DNA of 64,000 nucleotides. Origin: an uncultured Alphaproteobacteria bacterium (GTDB lineage: Bacteria > Pseudomonadota > Alphaproteobacteria > RF32 > CAG-239). The notes beneath the pieces were generated by a model, which ran no database searches, was not told the DNA's origin, and saw only the letters and a program-made list of their open reading frames with translations. Positions 1-30,793 of this stretch are shown piece by piece. Position numbers and translations under genes: made by a program. The first letter of the stretch is position 1. Every line of letters begins with the position of its first letter. The DNA lies in contig CAKQPS010000003.1 of NCBI GenBank assembly GCA_934270475.1, positions 128,318-192,317 of the forward strand. Reading direction: 5' to 3'.

Positions 1-162
1 GGTTTTATTCAGCCGTCTTTGGGCGGAAAAGATGTTTTTGTGCATATCACAAAGTTAGAAGAAATTGGTTTGCGCCGTTTGTATGAAGGACAAAAAGTCG
101 GCTATGAACTATATGACGACCGCGGACGGACTGCAGCCGGAAATATTGTAATTTTACGCTAA
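1..162 (+). CDS. cold-shock protein (CspA family), 3' fragment; CDS starts upstream of the window
   Basis: Frame 1 gives GFIQPSLGGKDVFVHITKLEEIGLRRLYEGQKVGYELYDDRGRTAAGNIVILR*, matching the C-terminal half of a cold-shock domain; TAA at 160-162. Confidence 0.7.
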   Translation, partial: GFIQPSLGGKDVFVHITKLEEIGLRRLYEGQKVGYELYDDRGRTAAGNIVILR

Positions 163-179
163 AAAAATAAACAAAAAAC

Positions 180-208
180 TTGACAAATAAAAAGTGGTGT
201 GTTAATCA
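180..208 (+). promoter_or_regulatory. sigma70-like promoter candidate (TTGACA-17nt-TAATCA); a second TATAAT at 240-245
   Basis: TTGACA 180-185, 17-nt spacer, TAATCA 203-208; sits just upstream of the hairpin array and the ankyrin gene. Confidence 0.35.
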
Positions 209-258
209 TACATCACTTTTTAATTTTTATATTTTATTATATAATACCTAAAGCTGAC

Positions 259-676
259 TATTAGCACAGCTCAGTTCCATTGTGAAATGCAGCTTAGTCT
301 TGGAAAGTGGATGCATTTTGGAATCTTCATATACACATATTTTTTTGGTTACTGCCAAACTCCGTTGTGAAACGCGGTTTGGTTCTGCAATAGTGCATGT
401 TTCATACTAGAAACCGGCTATGTTTCGTTGTGAAACGGGACATAGCATTTTTCAAATGCGAAGTCTACATCGTGCAGATGTATTCAATATACTCTCTTTC
501 ATAATGTGAATTAGTCAGACTCCATTGTGAAATGCAGTTTGATTTATGTAGTAGAAATGTTAAGTTTGTATCAAGCGCAGCAGTTCAACCAAAATTGAGT
601 GAATAATGAAAAGTGTTGACGTTGTGCTGTATTAGTAAATGCTTTTGCCCTGTTGTGAAACACGGCGAAAGCATTT
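259..676 (+). repeat. tandem array of 5 related hairpins with a GUGA tetraloop and covarying stems (units about 259-288, 344-373, 407-436, 523-554, 637-676)
   Basis: Conserved core C-[YRTT]-GTGA-[AAYR]-C; inner stems CATT/AATG, CGTT/AACG, CGTT/AACG, CATT/AATG, TGTT/AACA; outer stems of 8-13 bp differ in sequence but keep pairing; G.T wobbles are consistent only with + strand RNA. Confidence 0.6.
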
Positions 677-756
677 TTTTTGTGTTGTGCAAATAGTTAT
701 TATTCGTTGATTTTTTGGGTATGAAGTGGTATTTTTTATGTAAAATATAAAAACAT

Positions 757-3633
757 TTGGGGATTTTTATGAGATTTTACTATTTTATTTTACCCGCTGC
801 ATTGGCTTGTATTCAGCCTTTGTATGCCCAAGAAAAAGAAGTGCAGCTGACCAACGCCGAAGAGCTGTTTTTTACTCAAAAGAATGATTTGGAAACTGTT
901 TATAACAAAGACGGCAGTTTATTTTCCGGTGCAGTGCGCAAAAAAGATGCCGAAGGGCGGAATTTTACTTATTTTTACCGCAACGGACTGCGTCACGGCG
1001 TCGCCAGAGCAAATTATGAAGACGGCAAAATAGAATGTGAAATCACCTATCGAAAAGGTCTGAAAGACGGCGAAGAAATTTACTTTTTAGAAAATGAAAA
1101 TCCTAAATTTAAGAAAACCTATAAAGAAAATGTGCTGAACGGCGAAGAATTGCTGTTTTATGAAAACGGCAAGCCGAAAGTACAAAATCATTATTTGAAT
1201 GGTAAACTGGACGGCGAAACAACCTATTTTGATGAAAACGGCAACCGTGTTAAAATAGAGCATTTTAAAAACGGAGTCAAAAACGGGTTGGAACATATTA
1301 TTGCCGACAATGTGCTTATAGAAGAAAATAACTATGCCGACGGAGTGCTGAACGGTATAACCAAAAAATATAGCAAAGATTATCAAACGGACGAGATTGC
1401 TTATAAAGACGGCAGAAAAAACGGAATGGCAAAGCATTTTAATACTGACGGTAGCATTATTGCAATTCCCTATGAAGATGATTTGAAAAACGGTACGGGA
1501 ACAGCATATTATCCCGATAATAAAATAGCCAACACGGCAGAATACGTTAATGATGAAAAAAATGGAATGAGTGTAAAGTTTTTTAAGGACGGCAAGCGTC
1601 AGCTTGCTGAAACTTATAAAAACGGCAAATTGGAAGGCGTTAGCCGAACTTTTGATAAAAACGGCAATCTGACAAAAGTCAGCTATTATGTTGACGGTAT
1701 GGAACTAGCCTCGGTTAACTTAGAGCAAAACACCGAATTGCGCGATATGATGTCGGCGCACAGATTGGGGCAGATTAGCAAATATTCCTCTAAAAAAATT
1801 TATTGGTATCCGCTGCTGTGGCTGGCTTTGAATACCGAAGATATGGCTATTTTGCAGGCGTTGGAAAAAGATATGAAAATGTACGGCGCCGAAATTGACG
1901 ATATGGCGGTATATCAGCGCGAAAGCAAAACAAAGTTTGCCGATTACACTCGTAATTTGTATTTTGGGCTGCTGCCGCTCAGCTATGCTGTTGATTTGTC
2001 GGCTCCGGTCGAAATTTTGCAAAAATTTGCCGCACCTAAGCAGTTAAACGCGCAGAACCCGCGCGGAGGAACGGCTTTGCAAGAAGCGGTCAGACTGAAT
2101 AACTTGGAAATGGTGCGCTTTTTACTGCTGCATAAAGCCGATGTTTCCGCGGTTAAAAATTCAAATATTTTGGCGCAGTCAATTAAAGAGAACGTTCGTT
2201 TGCCTATTCTTGAAGAATTGATAAAAGCCGGCGCCGATGTCAACGCGCCTGATAATGACGGAAAGCTGCCGGTTGTGCTGGCTGTTGATAAAAATGAGGT
2301 TAATTTGCTGAAATTATTGAAAAATAACGGAGCAGATTTGAACATAGAACTGCCCGACGGAAAAAATCTGCTGTTTTATGCTTATGAGCACGAGCGCGGC
2401 ACGCAAATTGCCGATTTTTTGCTGAGTTCCGGAGCCGATGCTAACCAGCCGGATAAAAACGGCGGATTGCTGATTTTAGAAGCTTTGAAAAAATATGATG
2501 AAACTATGCTGGGTAAATTATTAGAGCATGGAGCCGATGTAAATAAAGAAAATTCAACTGGTGAAAGCGCCGTGTCATATGTAATGGAAAATAAATATGA
2601 TACTGCGACAATCCAAAAAATATTGGCTCATAATGTTAATTATTCCGGCTTGTTTGGGGCAAAAAAACAACCACTTTGGCGGTTGGCGGCAGAAAATGAT
2701 GCCTCAGTGCTGAAACAAATCTTAGATAAAAACGGCGGGGCGGATAAAGCCGATGCGGCAGGTTTTGTGCCTCTGCAGATTTTGATAAATTGGAACGGCG
2801 GCGACTCTTCGGCGCTTAAAGAAACTTTGTTGTCATATCTTACTCCTGAATGGCTTAATGCGCATCCAAAATTTTGGCAGCAGGTATTGTTGGCAAAAAA
2901 TTTGGAAGTGTGGAATGATTTGGTTAAAATCGGTTTTGATGCAAATGTCAAAGACCAAAACGGGCAAACAGCTGCTTGGATTTTGCTGAAAAATAACTAT
3001 GAACCAGTTTGGTGGAGCTCGCTTAAAGAATTAAAACCGGATTTGAATATACCGGCTGAAAACGGCAAAACCTTGCTGCAATATGCCGTAGAAAATGACA
3101 GAGGGCTGTCGCTAACAAAATATTTGCTGCAAAACGGAGCGAACATCAAAACATTGGATTCTGCTTGTTTGGCAAAGCTGCATGGTGATAGGGCTGAACT
3201 TACGGAGCTGCTGCTGGATTATGGAGCAAATACCTCTTATGTTTCAGACAGCGGAGAAACACTGCTGATGTCCGCGGTGCAAAATCTGAACGGCGTATTA
3301 TTTGACTATTTGCTGGCGAACGGAGCCGATGTTAATGCGCGCGACAATAACGGAAATACCGCCTTGTTTTATGTCGCGGAAGCCGTTTTGGACAATCCGC
3401 AGGTTTCTAAAGATGAAATGTTGGTGCAGCTTGCCGAGGTAATTGCCAAACTCAAACAGCTTGGCGCCAATATAAACGAGCAGAACGGCAACGGCGAAAC
3501 CGTGCTGGTTTATTTAGCCAAAACTCAATCTCCGGCTTATGCCGAAATTGAAAAAATATTGCTGGAGCAGGGGGCTGATGAGACAATCAAAGACCAATAC
3601 GGCAGAACCGCCGCAAATTATAGGATAAAATAA
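757..3633 (+). CDS. secreted MORN/YwqK-type repeat plus ankyrin-repeat protein (ORF opens at TTG 757; likely ATG start at 769 with a GGGGA Shine-Dalgarno)
   Basis: N-terminal signal peptide MRFYYFILPAALACIQPLYA|QE; repeated YxNGKxxxxxxYxNGKLDGxxTYFDENG (MORN_2-like) units; C-terminal half has many ankyrin repeats (GxTALxxAVxxNNLEMVxxLLxxGADVN). Confidence 0.8.
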   Translation: MGIFMRFYYFILPAALACIQPLYAQEKEVQLTNAEELFFTQKNDLETVYNKDGSLFSGAVRKKDAEGRNFTYFYRNGLRHGVARANYEDGKIECEITYRKGLKDGEEIYFLENENPKFKKTYKENVLNGEELLFYENGKPKVQNHYLNGKLDGETTYFDENGNRVKIEHFKNGVKNGLEHIIADNVLIEENNYADGVLNGITKKYSKDYQTDEIAYKDGRKNGMAKHFNTDGSIIAIPYEDDLKNGTGTAYYPDNKIANTAEYVNDEKNGMSVKFFKDGKRQLAETYKNGKLEGVSRTFDKNGNLTKVSYYVDGMELASVNLEQNTELRDMMSAHRLGQISKYSSKKIYWYPLLWLALNTEDMAILQALEKDMKMYGAEIDDMAVYQRESKTKFADYTRNLYFGLLPLSYAVDLSAPVEILQKFAAPKQLNAQNPRGGTALQEAVRLNNLEMVRFLLLHKADVSAVKNSNILAQSIKENVRLPILEELIKAGADVNAPDNDGKLPVVLAVDKNEVNLLKLLKNNGADLNIELPDGKNLLFYAYEHERGTQIADFLLSSGADANQPDKNGGLLILEALKKYDETMLGKLLEHGADVNKENSTGESAVSYVMENKYDTATIQKILAHNVNYSGLFGAKKQPLWRLAAENDASVLKQILDKNGGADKADAAGFVPLQILINWNGGDSSALKETLLSYLTPEWLNAHPKFWQQVLLAKNLEVWNDLVKIGFDANVKDQNGQTAAWILLKNNYEPVWWSSLKELKPDLNIPAENGKTLLQYAVENDRGLSLTKYLLQNGANIKTLDSACLAKLHGDRAELTELLLDYGANTSYVSDSGETLLMSAVQNLNGVLFDYLLANGADVNARDNNGNTALFYVAEAVLDNPQVSKDEMLVQLAEVIAKLKQLGANINEQNGNGETVLVYLAKTQSPAYAEIEKILLEQGADETIKDQYGRTAANYRIK

Positions 3634-22348: not shown

Positions 22349-22560
22349 TTTTTTTAAGAGAAAGGATAAAATAAAATGAGTTACAAATCTAGAATAATGC
22401 GTGAAAACGAGGCTTACGGCTGGCTGCCGGAAGATGAGGCTTATGGCAGAGTTTCTAATGTTCCGACACAGCCGGAACCGGAAGACGAAAACATCTACAG
22501 CGACAACGAACTTGCTCCGGAAAGAAGCGAGGAAGAAATATAATTTGAAAGGATATAAAA

Positions 22561-22689
22561 ATGAGTATGTATAAAATAAATGAAAAAACTGGAATAGATG
22601 AATTTGGAATAGATCACTCTAATTTTTCTTTAAGAGATGAACTAGAATATAATATGATGAGAGCCAAACAATCTATGCCAAAACAATAA
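22561..22689 (+). CDS. small phage ORF (43 aa) paralogous to the N-terminus of the 29580 ORF
   Basis: MSMYKINEKTGIDEFGIDHSNFSLRDELEYNMMRAKQ versus MSLYDIDEKTQIDEYGVCHKDFSLRDELEYNAMRQN; below the length cut-off of the ORF track. Confidence 0.3.
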   Translation: MSMYKINEKTGIDEFGIDHSNFSLRDELEYNMMRAKQSMPKQ

Positions 22690-22725
22690 AGTGTTGTTAG
22701 ACAAGCAGTTGGGGCAATAAAAGAT

Positions 22726-23046
22726 ATGAATCGTAATTATTGGGATATGAAAAGAGATAATACCATTGGAAATGATGATTATTTTCATTGCAAAGCTAAT
22801 TATGAAGCTGCAGATAGAGGTGATTTAGGCAGATCAATAGCCCAGTGGTTAGGGGATAAAAAAGAAGATTTTGATTATTATAAAAATCAGCTTAGAGGAT
22901 TATCCGCTTTAGAAGCATCTTTAGATAGAATTCACGATAGAAATGTAAATAAAATAGGTAGACAACGAGCTCAAAGCGGTTTATATTCAAACTCACGAGA
23001 TGCCTGTGAATCTTTTAGAGTTAAAGGTATAAACGACGACTATTAA
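22726..23046 (+). CDS. serum amyloid A (SAA)-domain protein
   Basis: YWDMKRDNTIGNDDYFHCKANYEAADRGDLG aligns to SAA [31 protein letters not shown]; C-terminal ...FRVKGINDDY* parallels SAA ...FRPAGLPEKY*. Confidence 0.6.
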   Translation: MNRNYWDMKRDNTIGNDDYFHCKANYEAADRGDLGRSIAQWLGDKKEDFDYYKNQLRGLSALEASLDRIHDRNVNKIGRQRAQSGLYSNSRDACESFRVKGINDDY

Positions 23047-23064
23047 AATTAAGGAATAAAACAT

Positions 23065-23289
23065 ATGAAACTGGTATTTTATTTTGCAGCAGTATTTATC
23101 ATTTTGGCGGTTATTGGTTTTGCCGGATATTTGTTTTTTGATAAACAAGCCTATTGCTTGGATATTGGAAAAATCTATGATCCGGTGCAAAAAATCTGCC
23201 GTGATGACTGTTTGAGTTGGAACGACCAAACCGGCTGCGTGCCGATAACAGATGAAAACCGGCAGAAAAAAGCCGCCGGAAAACTATAA
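23065..23289 (+). CDS. small membrane-anchored or secreted Cys-containing protein
   Basis: N-terminal hydrophobic helix MKLVFYFAAVFIILAVIGFAGYLFF, 4 Cys in the soluble part. Confidence 0.35.
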   Translation: MKLVFYFAAVFIILAVIGFAGYLFFDKQAYCLDIGKIYDPVQKICRDDCLSWNDQTGCVPITDENRQKKAAGKL

Positions 23290-23373
23290 AAAAATAATTA
23301 TTGGCTTTATTGAGCAAAACGCTTTGTTGATATAAAAACAAGGCGTTTTTTTATACCCGAAATTTGGAGAAAT

Positions 23374-23604
23374 ATGATGACTTTCATCAGCAGACAATTC
23401 GCGGAAGAGGTGCTTCTTCCGGACGGATCTGTCGCGTCTTCGGTCGCGGACGTTGACAAGTATTTACACGCCACGGGTTTAGCCTTGGCGGGCGACTATT
23501 CACCCGAATATTATCAAAATATTCGCAATCAACAAGAAAGAGAACGGCAGCAGTCTTTGTTTGCCGATTTTCTTTATAACTACAAAAGGATGATATGGAA
23601 ATGA
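23374..23604 (+). CDS. phage hypothetical protein
   Basis: 76-aa ORF overlapping the start of the next gene. Confidence 0.25.
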   Translation: MMTFISRQFAEEVLLPDGSVASSVADVDKYLHATGLALAGDYSPEYYQNIRNQQERERQQSLFADFLYNYKRMIWK

Positions 23605-30619: not shown

Positions 30620-30695
<76 letters not shown>

Positions 30696-30793
30696 AATAA
30701 AAAGAGAATATCAACATAACGCACATTCAATAACATATAGTTTAAGCTTTGTCAAATTTATTTTTCAGTTTTTTAATATGGGGGTAAATTTAT

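What the first reader, a model, noticed from the sequence alone, without database searches (positions are those of the whole stretch)
180..769. Long structured leader between a sigma70-like promoter and a secreted ankyrin/MORN protein gene; units 3 and 5 look like intrinsic terminators
The promoter is TTGACA-17-TAATCA at 180-208. The hairpin array lies between it and the ATG at 769, giving a leader of about 550 nt. Unit 5 (637-676) is followed directly by T8 and unit 3 by ATTTTT, so they resemble rho-independent terminators or attenuators. A separate hairpin with a GTGCA loop sits at 466-482. This arrangement suggests conditional read-through control (attenuation, RNA thermometer or a protein-dependent antiterminator) of a probable host-interaction protein. 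Alternatively the array yields several small RNAs ending at these terminators.
Basis: partly seen in the sequence, partly recalled or inferred. Interest (0 to 1): 0.55.

Follow-up and report, generated by a model that had tools for sequence, protein, structure and literature searches.

The report
Array of conserved-loop RNA hairpins
Between a cold-shock gene and an ankyrin gene of an uncultured gut alphaproteobacterium lie five copies of one undescribed RNA hairpin type, also found in crAss-like and Bacteroidales gut phages, and it looks like a separate noncoding RNA rather than a leader controlling the ankyrin gene.

Summary
Window 267-676 holds five + strand hairpins with one anatomy: a variable lower stem, a U.G/U-A pair, a pyrimidine.C mismatch, two covarying pairs, and the cap UU-GNRA-AA (TTGTGAAA). 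Nothing else in about 73 kb matches. Four to five units recur in six orthologous csp-ank spacers, 96.8% paired, with compensatory changes at 9 of 12 pairs.

The "long leader of the ankyrin gene" reading is poorly supported. Three more distant orthologues lack the array entirely. All seven aligned orthologues keep an extended -10 promoter (TTGATT-17-TGnTAnnnT, window 707-735) between the array and the ATG. The last unit is always a strong terminator. In another bacterial contig, L154, a similar array faces a convergent gene.

The same hairpin type occurs in crAss-like phages and in Bacteroidales temperate-phage early regions. Rfam 15 and the literature searches give no match.

Best reading, at confidence 0.42: an accessory noncoding RNA of about 0.47 kb that offers several copies of a protein-binding hairpin. 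It starts either at the conserved TTGACA at 180 or by read-through from csp, and ends at unit 5. The binding partner and the function are unknown.

The parts
1..162 (+). 3' part of a cold-shock protein gene (csp, 68 aa in full), stop codon at 160-162
   Evidence: Pfam CSD, E 4e-12. The full gene is seen in L001.
180..208 (+). Candidate sigma70-type promoter of the array: TTGACA 180-185, 17-nt spacer, TAATCA 203-208, preceded by an A-rich tract
   Evidence: Listed by the scan. AAAAAACTTGACAA and the 17-nt spacing to a TA-starting hexamer are conserved in six loci. The same style is seen upstream of tRNA-Ala and upstream of the L154 arrays. The -10 lacks the usual final T, so it is unproven.
188..235 (+). 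Intrinsic terminator of csp: hairpin 188-222, then a T-rich tail. It overlaps the candidate promoter.
   Evidence: dG -15.6, z -6.3. The stem covaries between orthologues.
267..300 (+). Hairpin unit 1 (orthologous unit A), loop motif at 280-287, C.C mismatch
   Evidence: R1 38.5 bits. Alignment A1. Weak as an isolated fold.
352..385 (+). Hairpin unit 2 (orthologous unit B), loop motif at 365-372, C.C mismatch
   Evidence: R1 42.8 bits. dG -14.2.
415..452 (+). Hairpin unit 3, loop motif at 428-435, U.G in place of the mismatch, followed by ATTTTT. Window-specific insertion and possible internal terminator.
   Evidence: R1 39 bits. Terminator scan. dG -18.3. Absent from the other arrays.
466..482 (+). 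Small 6-bp hairpin with a GTGCA loop, part of the same window-specific insertion
   Evidence: dG -6.3, z -2.3. Not conserved as a hairpin in the orthologues.
512..545 (+). Hairpin unit 4 (orthologous unit C), loop motif at 525-532, C.C mismatch
   Evidence: R1 41.6 bits. dG -11.5. A-U to G-C compensatory change versus L003.
637..681 (+). Hairpin unit 5 (orthologous unit D), loop motif at 653-660, C.C mismatch, T8 at 674-681. Terminator of the array transcript.
   Evidence: R1 41.1 bits. dG -21.6, z -5.4. A T-run follows unit D in all six arrays.
684..693 (+). Conserved block GTTGTGCAAA upstream of the ank promoter; candidate operator of unknown role
   Evidence: Conserved in the window, L003, L004 and the array-less L009.
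707..735 (+). Promoter of the ankyrin/MORN gene itself: -35 TTGATT 707-712, 17-nt spacer, extended -10 TGg TATTTT 727-735
   Evidence: Invariant TTGATTTT and TG-TA-T-T columns in seven orthologues, including three without the array.
769..3633 (+). Gene for a secreted MORN-repeat/ankyrin-repeat protein (954 aa), SD GGGGA at 759-763
   Evidence: Pfam Ank_2 at 1.6e-43 and MORN_2 at 4.6e-15. Orthologues are named 'Alphaproteobacteria bacterium' MAGs.

Best explanation
The 5-hairpin array is an accessory noncoding RNA locus inserted between the csp terminator and the ankyrin gene's own promoter. It is not that gene's leader.

Proposed transcript: it begins about 7 nt after the TAATCA at 203-208, near position 215, inside the 3' arm of the csp terminator, so that hairpin cannot form in the new RNA. 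Alternatively it arises by read-through of the csp terminator. It runs through units 1-5 and ends at the unit-5 terminator near 681, giving about 0.47 kb. A shorter form of about 0.24 kb is possible, ending at unit 3 near 452.

What selection preserves is the hairpin itself: 5'-U Y N N UU GNRA AA N' N' C R-3' on top of a free-to-vary helix. That pattern is typical of a site read by a protein through the loop and a helix irregularity.

I infer that the RNA presents 4-5 copies of such a site and acts as a multivalent binder, either as a sponge or as an RNP scaffold. The partner is unidentified. It also recognises the same hairpin in early transcripts of crAss-like and Bacteroidales phages.

Shown: the structure, the strand, conservation with covariation, unit turnover, dispensability, the separate ank promoter motif, terminal terminators, and presence in phages.
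Inferred: the transcription start, the transcript ends, protein binding, and the sponge function.
For: Structure:
- In 18 units from four loci, 96.8% of cells are paired. Nine of 12 pairs show changes on both sides. No shuffle in 500 reaches the observed score. Slid registers give 41-44% pairing.

Strand:
- MFE is -167 kcal/mol on + versus -129 on -.
- R1 scores 38-43 bits on + versus at most 15 on -.
- In 92 unique candidate hairpins passing a loop-motif and pairing filter (a few are tandem-repeat or terminator false positives), G.U-type pairs number 141 against 5 A.C-type.

Conserved irregularity (not imposed by the filter used):
- The third pair from the UU/AA cap is C.C in 49 and U.C in 13 of the 92.
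- The fourth pair is U.G in 41.

Noncoding:
- No ORF is conserved across the arrays.

Not a leader:
- The ank promoter motif is invariant in seven orthologues, three of them array-less.
- Spacers of about 150-210 nt without any unit occur in L006, L009 and L010.
- Unit D always carries a T-run, and five of six arrays have a second terminator.

Own promoter:
- AAAAAACTTGACAA plus a fixed 17-nt spacing occurs in six loci.
- The same A-rich-TTGACA style occurs upstream of tRNA-Ala.
- It also occurs upstream of both L154 arrays. One of those faces a convergent gene, and the other lies antisense between two minus-strand genes.

Accessory and dynamic:
- Units are gained and lost between close relatives.

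Same module elsewhere:
- R1 was built from alphaproteobacterial units only, yet it hits hairpins at 20-41 bits in crAss-like phage loci, Bacteroidales temperate-phage-like loci and other contigs.
- The core CTCCGTTGTGAAACGCGG is identical in window unit 2 and in L140 and L187.
Against: - No expression data exist, so the start, the ends and even transcription of the array are inferred.
- The -10 candidates (TAATCA, TATAAG, TAAATA, TATATA, TACATA) all lack the usually conserved final T and lie in a hairpin loop.
- TGACAA is also kept in array-less L006, so its conservation may have another cause.
- No candidate binding protein was found. The flanking proteins differ between contexts and have no Pfam or PHROG RNA-binding hit.
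- A GNRA loop with U-A closing pairs also caps ordinary terminators here (window 32414). Several non-array hits are plain terminators, as in L170 and L189.
- Selection on a single-stranded DNA form of the + strand cannot be excluded. The + strand carries G>C skew across the region. By the usual rule, which is my own inference, that makes it the leading-strand sequence and therefore the lagging-strand template.
- Only 19 of the 92 hairpins have a T-rich tail, so a termination role is not general.
Confidence: 0.42

Rival explanations
1. The array is a long 5' leader of the ankyrin/MORN mRNA. Units 3 and 5 are attenuators whose read-through is controlled by an antiterminator protein, by temperature, or by Csp-type RNA melting.
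For: - The array is co-oriented with ank and lies directly upstream of it.
- Units 3 and 5 have terminator form.
- In the phage contexts the hairpins sit inside co-directional operons just upstream of genes, for example before recT in L187 and L275. A cis role on downstream expression is plausible there.
- A csp gene lies just upstream. From my own knowledge, not tested here, Csp proteins are known antiterminators in E. coli.
Against: - An invariant extended -10 promoter lies between the array and the ATG in seven orthologues. Three of them have no array.
- Unit 5 is strong (dG -21.6 plus T8), and five of six arrays add a second terminator.
- L154 has an array with a convergent downstream gene.
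- The SD and start codon are not part of any hairpin.
Confidence: 0.12
2. The hairpins are passive RNA-level punctuation. They would be a stack of terminator or 3'-end stabiliser hairpins that insulate ank from the highly expressed csp gene and protect the csp mRNA from 3' exonucleases, as REP sequences do in E. coli. The shared cap would reflect only a favoured stable loop.
For: - The array sits in a 3' intergenic position after csp here, and after a formate-tetrahydrofolate-ligase-like gene in L154.
- Some units carry T-runs.
- Ordinary terminators with a UU-GNRA-AA cap exist at window 32414, in L170 and in L189.
- The array is dispensable.
Against: - A strong csp terminator already precedes the array.
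- Most units lack a T-run: only 19 of 92 have one.
- A destabilising Y.C mismatch at a fixed position, with U.G beside it, is conserved across unrelated contexts. A stability-only role does not predict that.
- The 16-18 nt apical sequence is identical between an alphaproteobacterium and Bacteroidales phage-like contigs.
Confidence: 0.2
3. The element works as single-stranded DNA. On the transiently single-stranded + strand the hairpins would be recognition sites for a DNA enzyme such as an HUH or tyrosine transposase, a recombinase, or a primase or origin factor. This would make it a REP/BIME-like or attC-like mobile or recombination element shared with phages.
For: - Units are gained and lost between close relatives.
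- The element occurs in phages and in an accessory chromosomal spot near a tRNA gene and an XRE-type gene.
- Strand bias alone does not separate RNA from ssDNA. The + strand has G>C skew, and by my inference it is therefore the lagging-strand template.
- L154 carries near-identical recent copies.
Against: - There is only one cluster in about 73 kb. From my own knowledge, REP families are dispersed in hundreds of copies.
- All units have the same orientation.
- Stems are not conserved in sequence.
- No flanking guide tetranucleotide is conserved, and no R'/R'' attC boxes are present.
- No transposase or integrase is adjacent.
- Outside the second L154 mini-array, the arrays examined are co-oriented with transcription. 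That mini-array lies antisense between two minus-strand genes but has its own TTGACA upstream.
Confidence: 0.1
4. The array encodes several separate small RNAs. Each would have a variable 5' region acting as a seed and a shared 3' hairpin as a handle. They would be made from internal promoters or by processing, like tandem sRNA clusters.
For: - Variable spacers of 55-120 nt precede each conserved hairpin.
- A conserved TTTCATAATGT-like block (a possible -10) lies 12-20 nt upstream of unit C in all arrays.
- Some internal units carry T-runs (units 3, and in L003 and L004).
- In L154 the first unit looks like a promoter, about 110 nt, then a hairpin with T6.
Against: - Spacers are poorly conserved between sublineages. 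That argues against seed function.
- No consistent internal -35/-10 pairs are present.
- Most internal units lack a U-tail.
Confidence: 0.1

Closest known systems
Tandem 'cuckoo'/CcsR-type sRNA arrays of Alphaproteobacteria (e.g. CcsR1-4 downstream of a small DUF1127 gene in Rhodobacter). From my own knowledge, not checked in a paper here.
   Same: - Alphaproteobacterial host.
- Several homologous hairpin units in direct tandem, downstream of a small gene.
- The conserved loop carries the information, the stems vary, and the copy number varies between relatives.
   Different: - The cuckoo loops carry the anti-SD-like CCUCCUCCC motif for base pairing.
- Here the loop is a 4-nt GNRA tetraloop, too short to pair, with a conserved Y.C mismatch.
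- There is no sequence similarity.
- The present motif also occurs in Bacteroidales and crAss-like phages.
CsrB/RsmZ/RsmY protein-sponge sRNAs
   Same: One noncoding RNA made of many similar hairpins whose loops are the conserved part, ending in an intrinsic terminator. The proposed action is multivalent titration of a protein.
   Different: - The defining GGA loop motif is absent. The loops are GUGA, with rare GGGA and GCGA.
- No CsrA-type partner was identified.
- The sponge function here is inference only.
REP/BIME elements of enterobacteria and pseudomonads
   Same: Imperfect palindromes with a fixed mismatch, clustered in intergenic 3' regions, transcribed, dispensable, and variable in copy number.
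   Different: - REPs are dispersed genome-wide, have conserved stem sequence and a flanking GTAG-type tetranucleotide, and alternate in orientation.
- Here there is one cluster in about 73 kb, with variable stems, a conserved apex and uniform orientation.
boxB hairpins of lambdoid nut sites (N-dependent antitermination)
   Same: A GNRA-type loop closed by U-A on a hairpin in phage early transcripts. The loop is read by a protein, and the position lies between immediate-early and recombination/replication genes in the Bacteroidales phage-like loci.
   Different: - boxB has a 5-bp stem and a pentaloop, comes with a boxA element, and occurs once per operon.
- Here the stems are 11-15 bp with an internal mismatch, no conserved boxA follows or precedes them, and there are 3-8 copies.
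RNase III processing hairpins between phage T7 early genes
   Same: A family of similar irregular hairpins placed between co-transcribed early phage genes.
   Different: - T7 sites are about 20-bp two-helix substrates with a central internal loop.
- These are shorter, with the irregularity 4 bp below the loop.
- Cleavage was not tested.
RAGATH-6 RNA (Rfam RF02686)
   Same: A small GUGA-capped hairpin followed by a long hairpin, in phage-like regions rich in self-cleaving ribozymes. The third crAss hairpin plus its neighbour align weakly to it.
   Different: The score is 20.6 bits against a gathering score of 170. There is no match at all in the window.

Membership tests
Any Rfam 15 family | Match to a curated covariance model at its gathering score | tested here: not met
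   The whole window gives only three tRNAs at gathering score. At E<=10 over 100-900 there are only chance-level hits, none on the hairpin units as a class. Phage arrays give none either.
   A conserved TTGATT-17-TGnTAnnnT lies between the array and the ATG in seven orthologues. The array is absent from three of them.
   Units 3 and 5 have stem plus T-run. No conserved alternative pairing was seen. The global fold pairs distant parts only weakly and non-conservedly.
CsrB/RsmZ-type sponge sRNA | GGA (ANGGA) motifs in most hairpin loops | tested here: not met
   Loop motifs among the 92 candidates: TTGTGAAA 84, GCGA 3, GCAA 2, GGGA 1, others 2.
Cuckoo/CcsR sRNA arrays | CCUCCUCCC-type loop motif | tested here: not met
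   The loop is UUGUGAAA in all five window units.
REP/BIME | Many dispersed copies per genome with a conserved stem sequence | tested here: not met
   There is no further copy in 64 kb plus 9.4 kb. The stems differ between units and covary.
REP/BIME | Cognate RAYT transposase in the genome | not testable with these tools
   Only about 73 kb of the genome was available.
CRISPR array / type III antitoxin RNA array | Near-identical direct repeats at regular spacing | tested here: not met
   Unit spacing is 85, 63, 97 and 128 nt. Identity outside the 8-nt cap is low. No cas or toxin gene is adjacent.
Lambdoid nut site (boxA + boxB) | A boxA-like sequence at a fixed distance from a 5-bp-stem GNRA-like pentaloop hairpin | tested here: not met
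   The aligned flanks of 91 hairpins show no conserved block. The stems are 11-15 bp.
Integron attC | R''/R' boxes (RYYYAAC ... GTTRRRY) at the base of the hairpin, with extrahelical bases | tested here: not met
   The hairpin bases are not conserved. The conserved part is apical.
rRNA/tRNA mimic (autoregulatory ribosomal-protein site, anticodon-arm decoy) | The same hairpin present in rRNA or tRNA | tested here: inconclusive
   R1 finds nothing above 9.3 bits in an E. coli rrn operon with its tRNAs. The organism's own rRNA was not available. The cap is 8 nt or a tetraloop, not a 7-nt anticodon loop.

The most novel reading that the evidence does not exclude
The hairpin is a previously undescribed, sequence- and shape-specific RNA module shared by gut phages (Crassvirales and Bacteroidales temperate phages) and by chromosomes of gut Alphaproteobacteria. 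The chromosomal arrays would be RNA decoys in a phage-host conflict. They could titrate a phage early RNA-binding regulator that normally reads these hairpins in phage early transcripts. Conversely, the phage copies could titrate a host factor. Unit turnover and dispensability would reflect an arms race.
Probability: 0.1. Interest if true: 0.8.

Novelty: new variant of a known kind. Interest (0 to 1): 0.55.

Why it matters
If the reading holds, this is a new structured-RNA class with unusually clean covariation. It is found both in the most abundant human gut phages (crAss-like) and in uncultured gut Alphaproteobacteria.

A conserved apex with a fixed C.C mismatch gives a concrete bait for finding an unknown RNA-binding protein.

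The phage occurrences lie in early regions, among small genes of unknown function in the crAss-like phage record and just before the recombination genes in the temperate-phage-like loci. A ligand for the hairpin could therefore help explain how these phages regulate early expression.

For annotation, the practical lesson is that the ankyrin/MORN gene has its own conserved promoter. It should not be described as controlled by this 550-nt region.

Tried and rejected
1. Genome-contig scan with three TTGTGAAA loops.
2. About half of the metagenome pattern hits are unrelated direct or tandem repeats.
3. Rfam at permissive thresholds gave nothing relevant. This covers the window, the Bacteroidales phage array and the crAss region. 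The only lead was a sub-threshold resemblance to RAGATH-6.
4. Literature searches found no description. They covered the loop sequence, the 12-mers, crAss-like hairpins or promoters, and GUGA tetraloops in phages. The crAss-like vRNAP preprint reports no common motif upstream of early transcripts and does not mention hairpins.
5. Search for a shared neighbouring protein across contexts. All-vs-all BLASTP of flanking ORFs links only loci of the same lineage in the 25 largest clusters printed. Pfam and PHROGs give no RNA-binding hit for the flanking small proteins.
6. Coding potential: no ORF is conserved across the arrays.
7. Replication-related position: GC skew is flat and positive over the region.
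8. rRNA/tRNA mimicry: no hit in an E. coli rrn operon.
9. Ideas considered and dropped on anatomy alone:
   - tRNA-His anticodon-arm or TGT-substrate mimic. The loop register does not fit, and GCGA/GGGA variants break the UGU.
   - SECIS, IRE-like elements, group II intron domain V, attC, N4-type hairpin promoters.
10. The look-up meant to extend the genome 10 kb beyond the window's 3' end failed because the protein is not on record.

Full report
**What is there**

The window starts inside a 68-aa cold-shock gene (CSD domain), with its stop codon at 160-162. Next comes a strong hairpin at 188-222 (dG -15.6 kcal/mol, z -6.3) with a T-rich tail, which is the csp terminator.

Five hairpins follow on the + strand. 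Their loop motif TTGTGAAA starts at 280, 365, 428, 525 and 653. A small hairpin with a GTGCA loop sits at 466-482. T8 lies at 674-681. The ATG of a 954-aa secreted MORN/ankyrin protein is at 769.

**More than chance**

The remaining ~63.6 kb holds three TTGTGAAA on both strands together, which is about the shuffle expectation. The five clustered copies all have flanking complementarity. A covariance model of the unit (R1) scores them at 38-43 bits. The next hit in the window scores 19.6 bits and is an ordinary terminator. The 9.4 kb upstream of the window contains no further copy.

**Anatomy of the unit**

Reading outward from the loop:

- a GNRA tetraloop (GUGA; GGGA and GCGA in orthologues);
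- two U-A pairs;
- two pairs that covary freely (G-C/A-U, then C-G/U-A);
- a non-Watson-Crick position;
- a U.G, C-G or U-A pair;
- 6-9 further pairs of unconstrained sequence.

The non-Watson-Crick position is C.C in four of the five window units. It is U.C, A.C, C.A or A.A in orthologous units, and U.G in window unit 3 and one orthologous unit.

**Organism and orthologous loci**

The ankyrin protein's relatives, and the 90%-identity cluster of the window's GreA, are named only "Alphaproteobacteria bacterium" MAGs. The contigs come from human gut samples. The neighbourhood is core chromosome: ftsQAZ, S1, greA, folA, thyA, mutS and priA.

I fetched the csp-ank spacer from relatives at several identities:

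- 80% ankyrin identity: L003.
- 60-61% identity: L004/L005, L008, L143 and L228.
- 49-52% identity: L006/L007, L009 and L010.

The first six loci carry four or five units. In an alignment of 18 units, 96.8% of cells pair and 9 of 12 pairs show changes on both sides. No shuffle in 500 reaches the observed covariation. Sliding the partner by 1-3 columns drops pairing to 41-44%.

The spacer alignment shows four orthologous units, A to D. The window has one extra unit (unit 3, together with the GTGCA hairpin), and L003 has a different extra unit. Units are therefore gained and lost between close relatives.

L006, L009 and L010 have spacers of only about 150-210 nt with no unit at all. The array is dispensable for both flanking genes.

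**Strand and molecule**

- The + strand folds at -167 kcal/mol and the - strand at -129.
- R1 gives at most 15 bits on the - strand.
- In 92 unique candidate hairpins from all contexts, G.U-type pairs outnumber A.C-type pairs by 141 to 5.

Selection therefore acts on the single-stranded + strand. RNA is the natural reading. A single-stranded DNA form cannot be excluded. The + strand carries G>C skew, which by the usual rule makes it the lagging-strand template.

No ORF is conserved across the arrays.

**Why it is probably not the ankyrin gene's leader**

Between the last unit and the ATG lies TTGATT (707-712), a 17-nt spacer, TGg, and TATTTT (727-735). This is an extended -10 promoter.

In an alignment of seven orthologues, the columns TTGATTTT and TG-TA-T-T are invariant while the spacer between them varies freely. 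Three of the seven have no array, and one of those (L010) has a different upstream gene. This footprint says the ankyrin gene is transcribed from its own promoter, with a leader of about 25 nt.

Unit D is followed by a T-run in all six arrays (dG -21.6 plus T8 in the window). Five arrays add a second strong terminator before the ank promoter, which the window has lost. The layout looks built to stop transcription before ank, not to modulate entry into it.

**How the array may be transcribed**

The distance to a TA-starting hexamer in the loop of the csp terminator is always 17 nt: TAATCA, TATAAG, TAAATA, TATATA, TACATA. Meanwhile the terminator stem itself covaries.

A start about 7 nt further on would fall in the 3' arm of that hairpin. 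The new transcript would therefore not contain the csp terminator.

The same A-rich-TTGACA-AA style occurs 17 nt before a TATTGA upstream of tRNA-Ala in this window.

The promoter is plausible but not shown, for two reasons:

- The -10 candidates all lack the usual final T.
- TGACAA is also kept in array-less L006.

Read-through from csp is the alternative source.

**The same hairpin elsewhere**

A two-loop pattern scan of metagenome contigs and of IMG/VR returned 153 loci, of which 77 carry at least two true hairpins. The rest are unrelated repeats. Only two of the 77 are csp-ank loci.

1. About 56 loci are one crAss-like lineage. L144 matches uncultured phages cr50_1 and cr10_1; the cr50_1 record is classified Crassvirales, Suoliviridae.
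   - They carry two hairpins 96-98 nt apart, and many loci have a third about 645-655 nt further on, between small co-oriented genes.
   - The site is about 1.5 kb from the point where gene orientation switches.
   - A Hatchet ribozyme and a RAGATH-22 RNA lie nearby.
2. Two groups of Bacteroidales temperate-phage-like contigs carry arrays of 5-8 hairpins, many with T-runs.
   - L187 has a Cro/CI-type repressor gene upstream. In both groups the array is followed by genes for RecT, an exonuclease and a helicase.
   - The array fills a noncoding gap of about 700-840 nt just before recT.
3. L154 is an AT-rich bacterial contig.
   - One array of 4-5 units begins after aaaaaagaaCTTGACAaaaaa, downstream of a gene for a formate-tetrahydrofolate-ligase-like protein (named from the sequence; not run against a profile library). 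It ends in a strong terminator facing a convergent gene.
   - A second two-unit array, also preceded by TTGACA, lies antisense between two minus-strand genes.
   - Neither can be a 5' leader.

R1 was built from alphaproteobacterial units only, yet it scores these foreign hairpins at 20-41 bits. The Y.C mismatch and the neighbouring U.G recur there: C.C in 49, U.C in 13 and U.G in 41 of the 92. My filter did not require these features.

The 18-nt apex CTCCGTTGTGAAACGCGG is identical in window unit 2 and in L140 and L187.

**Interpretation**

A conserved apex and a fixed helix irregularity on a freely covarying stem are the signature of a site read by a protein. Four to eight copies on one RNA suggest multivalent binding, either as a sponge or as a scaffold.

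I therefore favour an accessory noncoding RNA of about 0.47 kb, possibly with a 0.24-kb form ending at unit 3. This step is inference.

I found no partner:

- Flanking proteins differ between contexts.
- They have no recognisable RNA-binding domain.
- An E. coli rrn operon contains no look-alike that would point to a ribosomal protein.

The rivals are:

- passive terminator or stabiliser hairpins, given that ordinary terminators capped UU-GNRA-AA exist;
- a single-stranded DNA recognition element;
- a cluster of separate small RNAs.

**Comparison with known systems**

The architecture works like tandem hairpin sRNA arrays: the cuckoo/CcsR family in Alphaproteobacteria, and CsrB/RsmZ sponges. 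It fails their defining loop motifs.

It shares features with other systems but fails the tested defining features of each:

- REP/BIME: irregular palindromes in 3' intergenic clusters.
- Lambdoid boxB: a GNRA-type loop closed by U-A in early phage RNA.
- T7 RNase III sites.

Rfam 15 has no model for it. Seven literature searches found no description.

**Verdict**

- The leader/attenuation interpretation is only partly supported. The terminators and perhaps the promoter are real; control of ank is unlikely.
- The feature is best filed as a new reiterated-hairpin RNA motif of unknown partner.
- Its notable property is that it is shared between gut Alphaproteobacteria and crAss-like and Bacteroidales phages.

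Noticed in passing
window 684-693: The block GTTGTGCAAA lies about 15 nt upstream of the ank -35. It is conserved in L003, L004 and the array-less L009. It differs by one base from the hairpin apex GTTGTGAAAC. It may be an operator, and the resemblance is unexplained.
   Followed up: partly
window 30748-30760 (minus strand): An A-rich tract followed by TTGACA-17-TATTGA lies upstream of tRNA-Ala (30620-30695). It has the same style as the candidate promoter at 175-208. AAAAHTTGACAAA-like sites are enriched in the window, with 9 found against 2.4 expected.
   Followed up: partly
L001 1718-2394 (upstream of window position 1): A 126-aa protein with no Pfam or PHROG match is always found just before csp. 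The p126-csp-ank synteny holds in all loci except L010. A tRNA gene on the opposite strand and an XRE-type HTH gene lie further upstream. In L004 the upstream gene is instead a RhuM-family gene, so the area upstream is variable.
   Followed up: partly
L144 3447-3573 and 6182-6348: The crAss-like phage region that carries the hairpins also holds a Hatchet ribozyme (100 bits) and a RAGATH-22 RNA (192 bits). The third hairpin plus a neighbouring long hairpin weakly resemble RAGATH-6, at 20.6 bits against a gathering score of 170.
   Followed up: partly
L154 2590-3100 (minus strand of the locus): In this AT-rich bacterial contig the array units share an almost identical stem (GGAACTTTCGC/GCGAAAGTTCC). 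One extra copy has the same stem but an unrelated loop (cuuuuucuaaag). This suggests recent local duplication and loop replacement.
   Followed up: no
L187 3790-3990: Beyond the five canonical units, the Bacteroidales phage array continues with three GC-rich hairpins. Their caps are variants: CUGCGACAG, CCGCGAUGG and GUUGUUUGAAAC. The family may therefore be broader than the TTGNRAAA pattern used.
   Followed up: no
L131, L140, L187, L275 arrays: In the Bacteroidales phage arrays most hairpins are followed by TTTT(T)AACCAAAAA. This faintly recalls an rrn-type boxA (UUUAACAA) placed after a boxB-like hairpin. It is not seen in the alphaproteobacterial or crAss copies.
   Followed up: no
window 22349-23594: A 1.2-kb stretch between larger genes holds only a string of small ORFs. 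The R1 hit at 23314-23351 there is an ordinary terminator.
   Followed up: partly
window 32414 region (minus strand): This is an ordinary intrinsic terminator capped UUGCAAAA (GGGCUG-UUGCAAAA-CAGUCU, then U8). It shows that the UU-GNRA-AA cap is also used on plain terminators in this genome.
   Followed up: no
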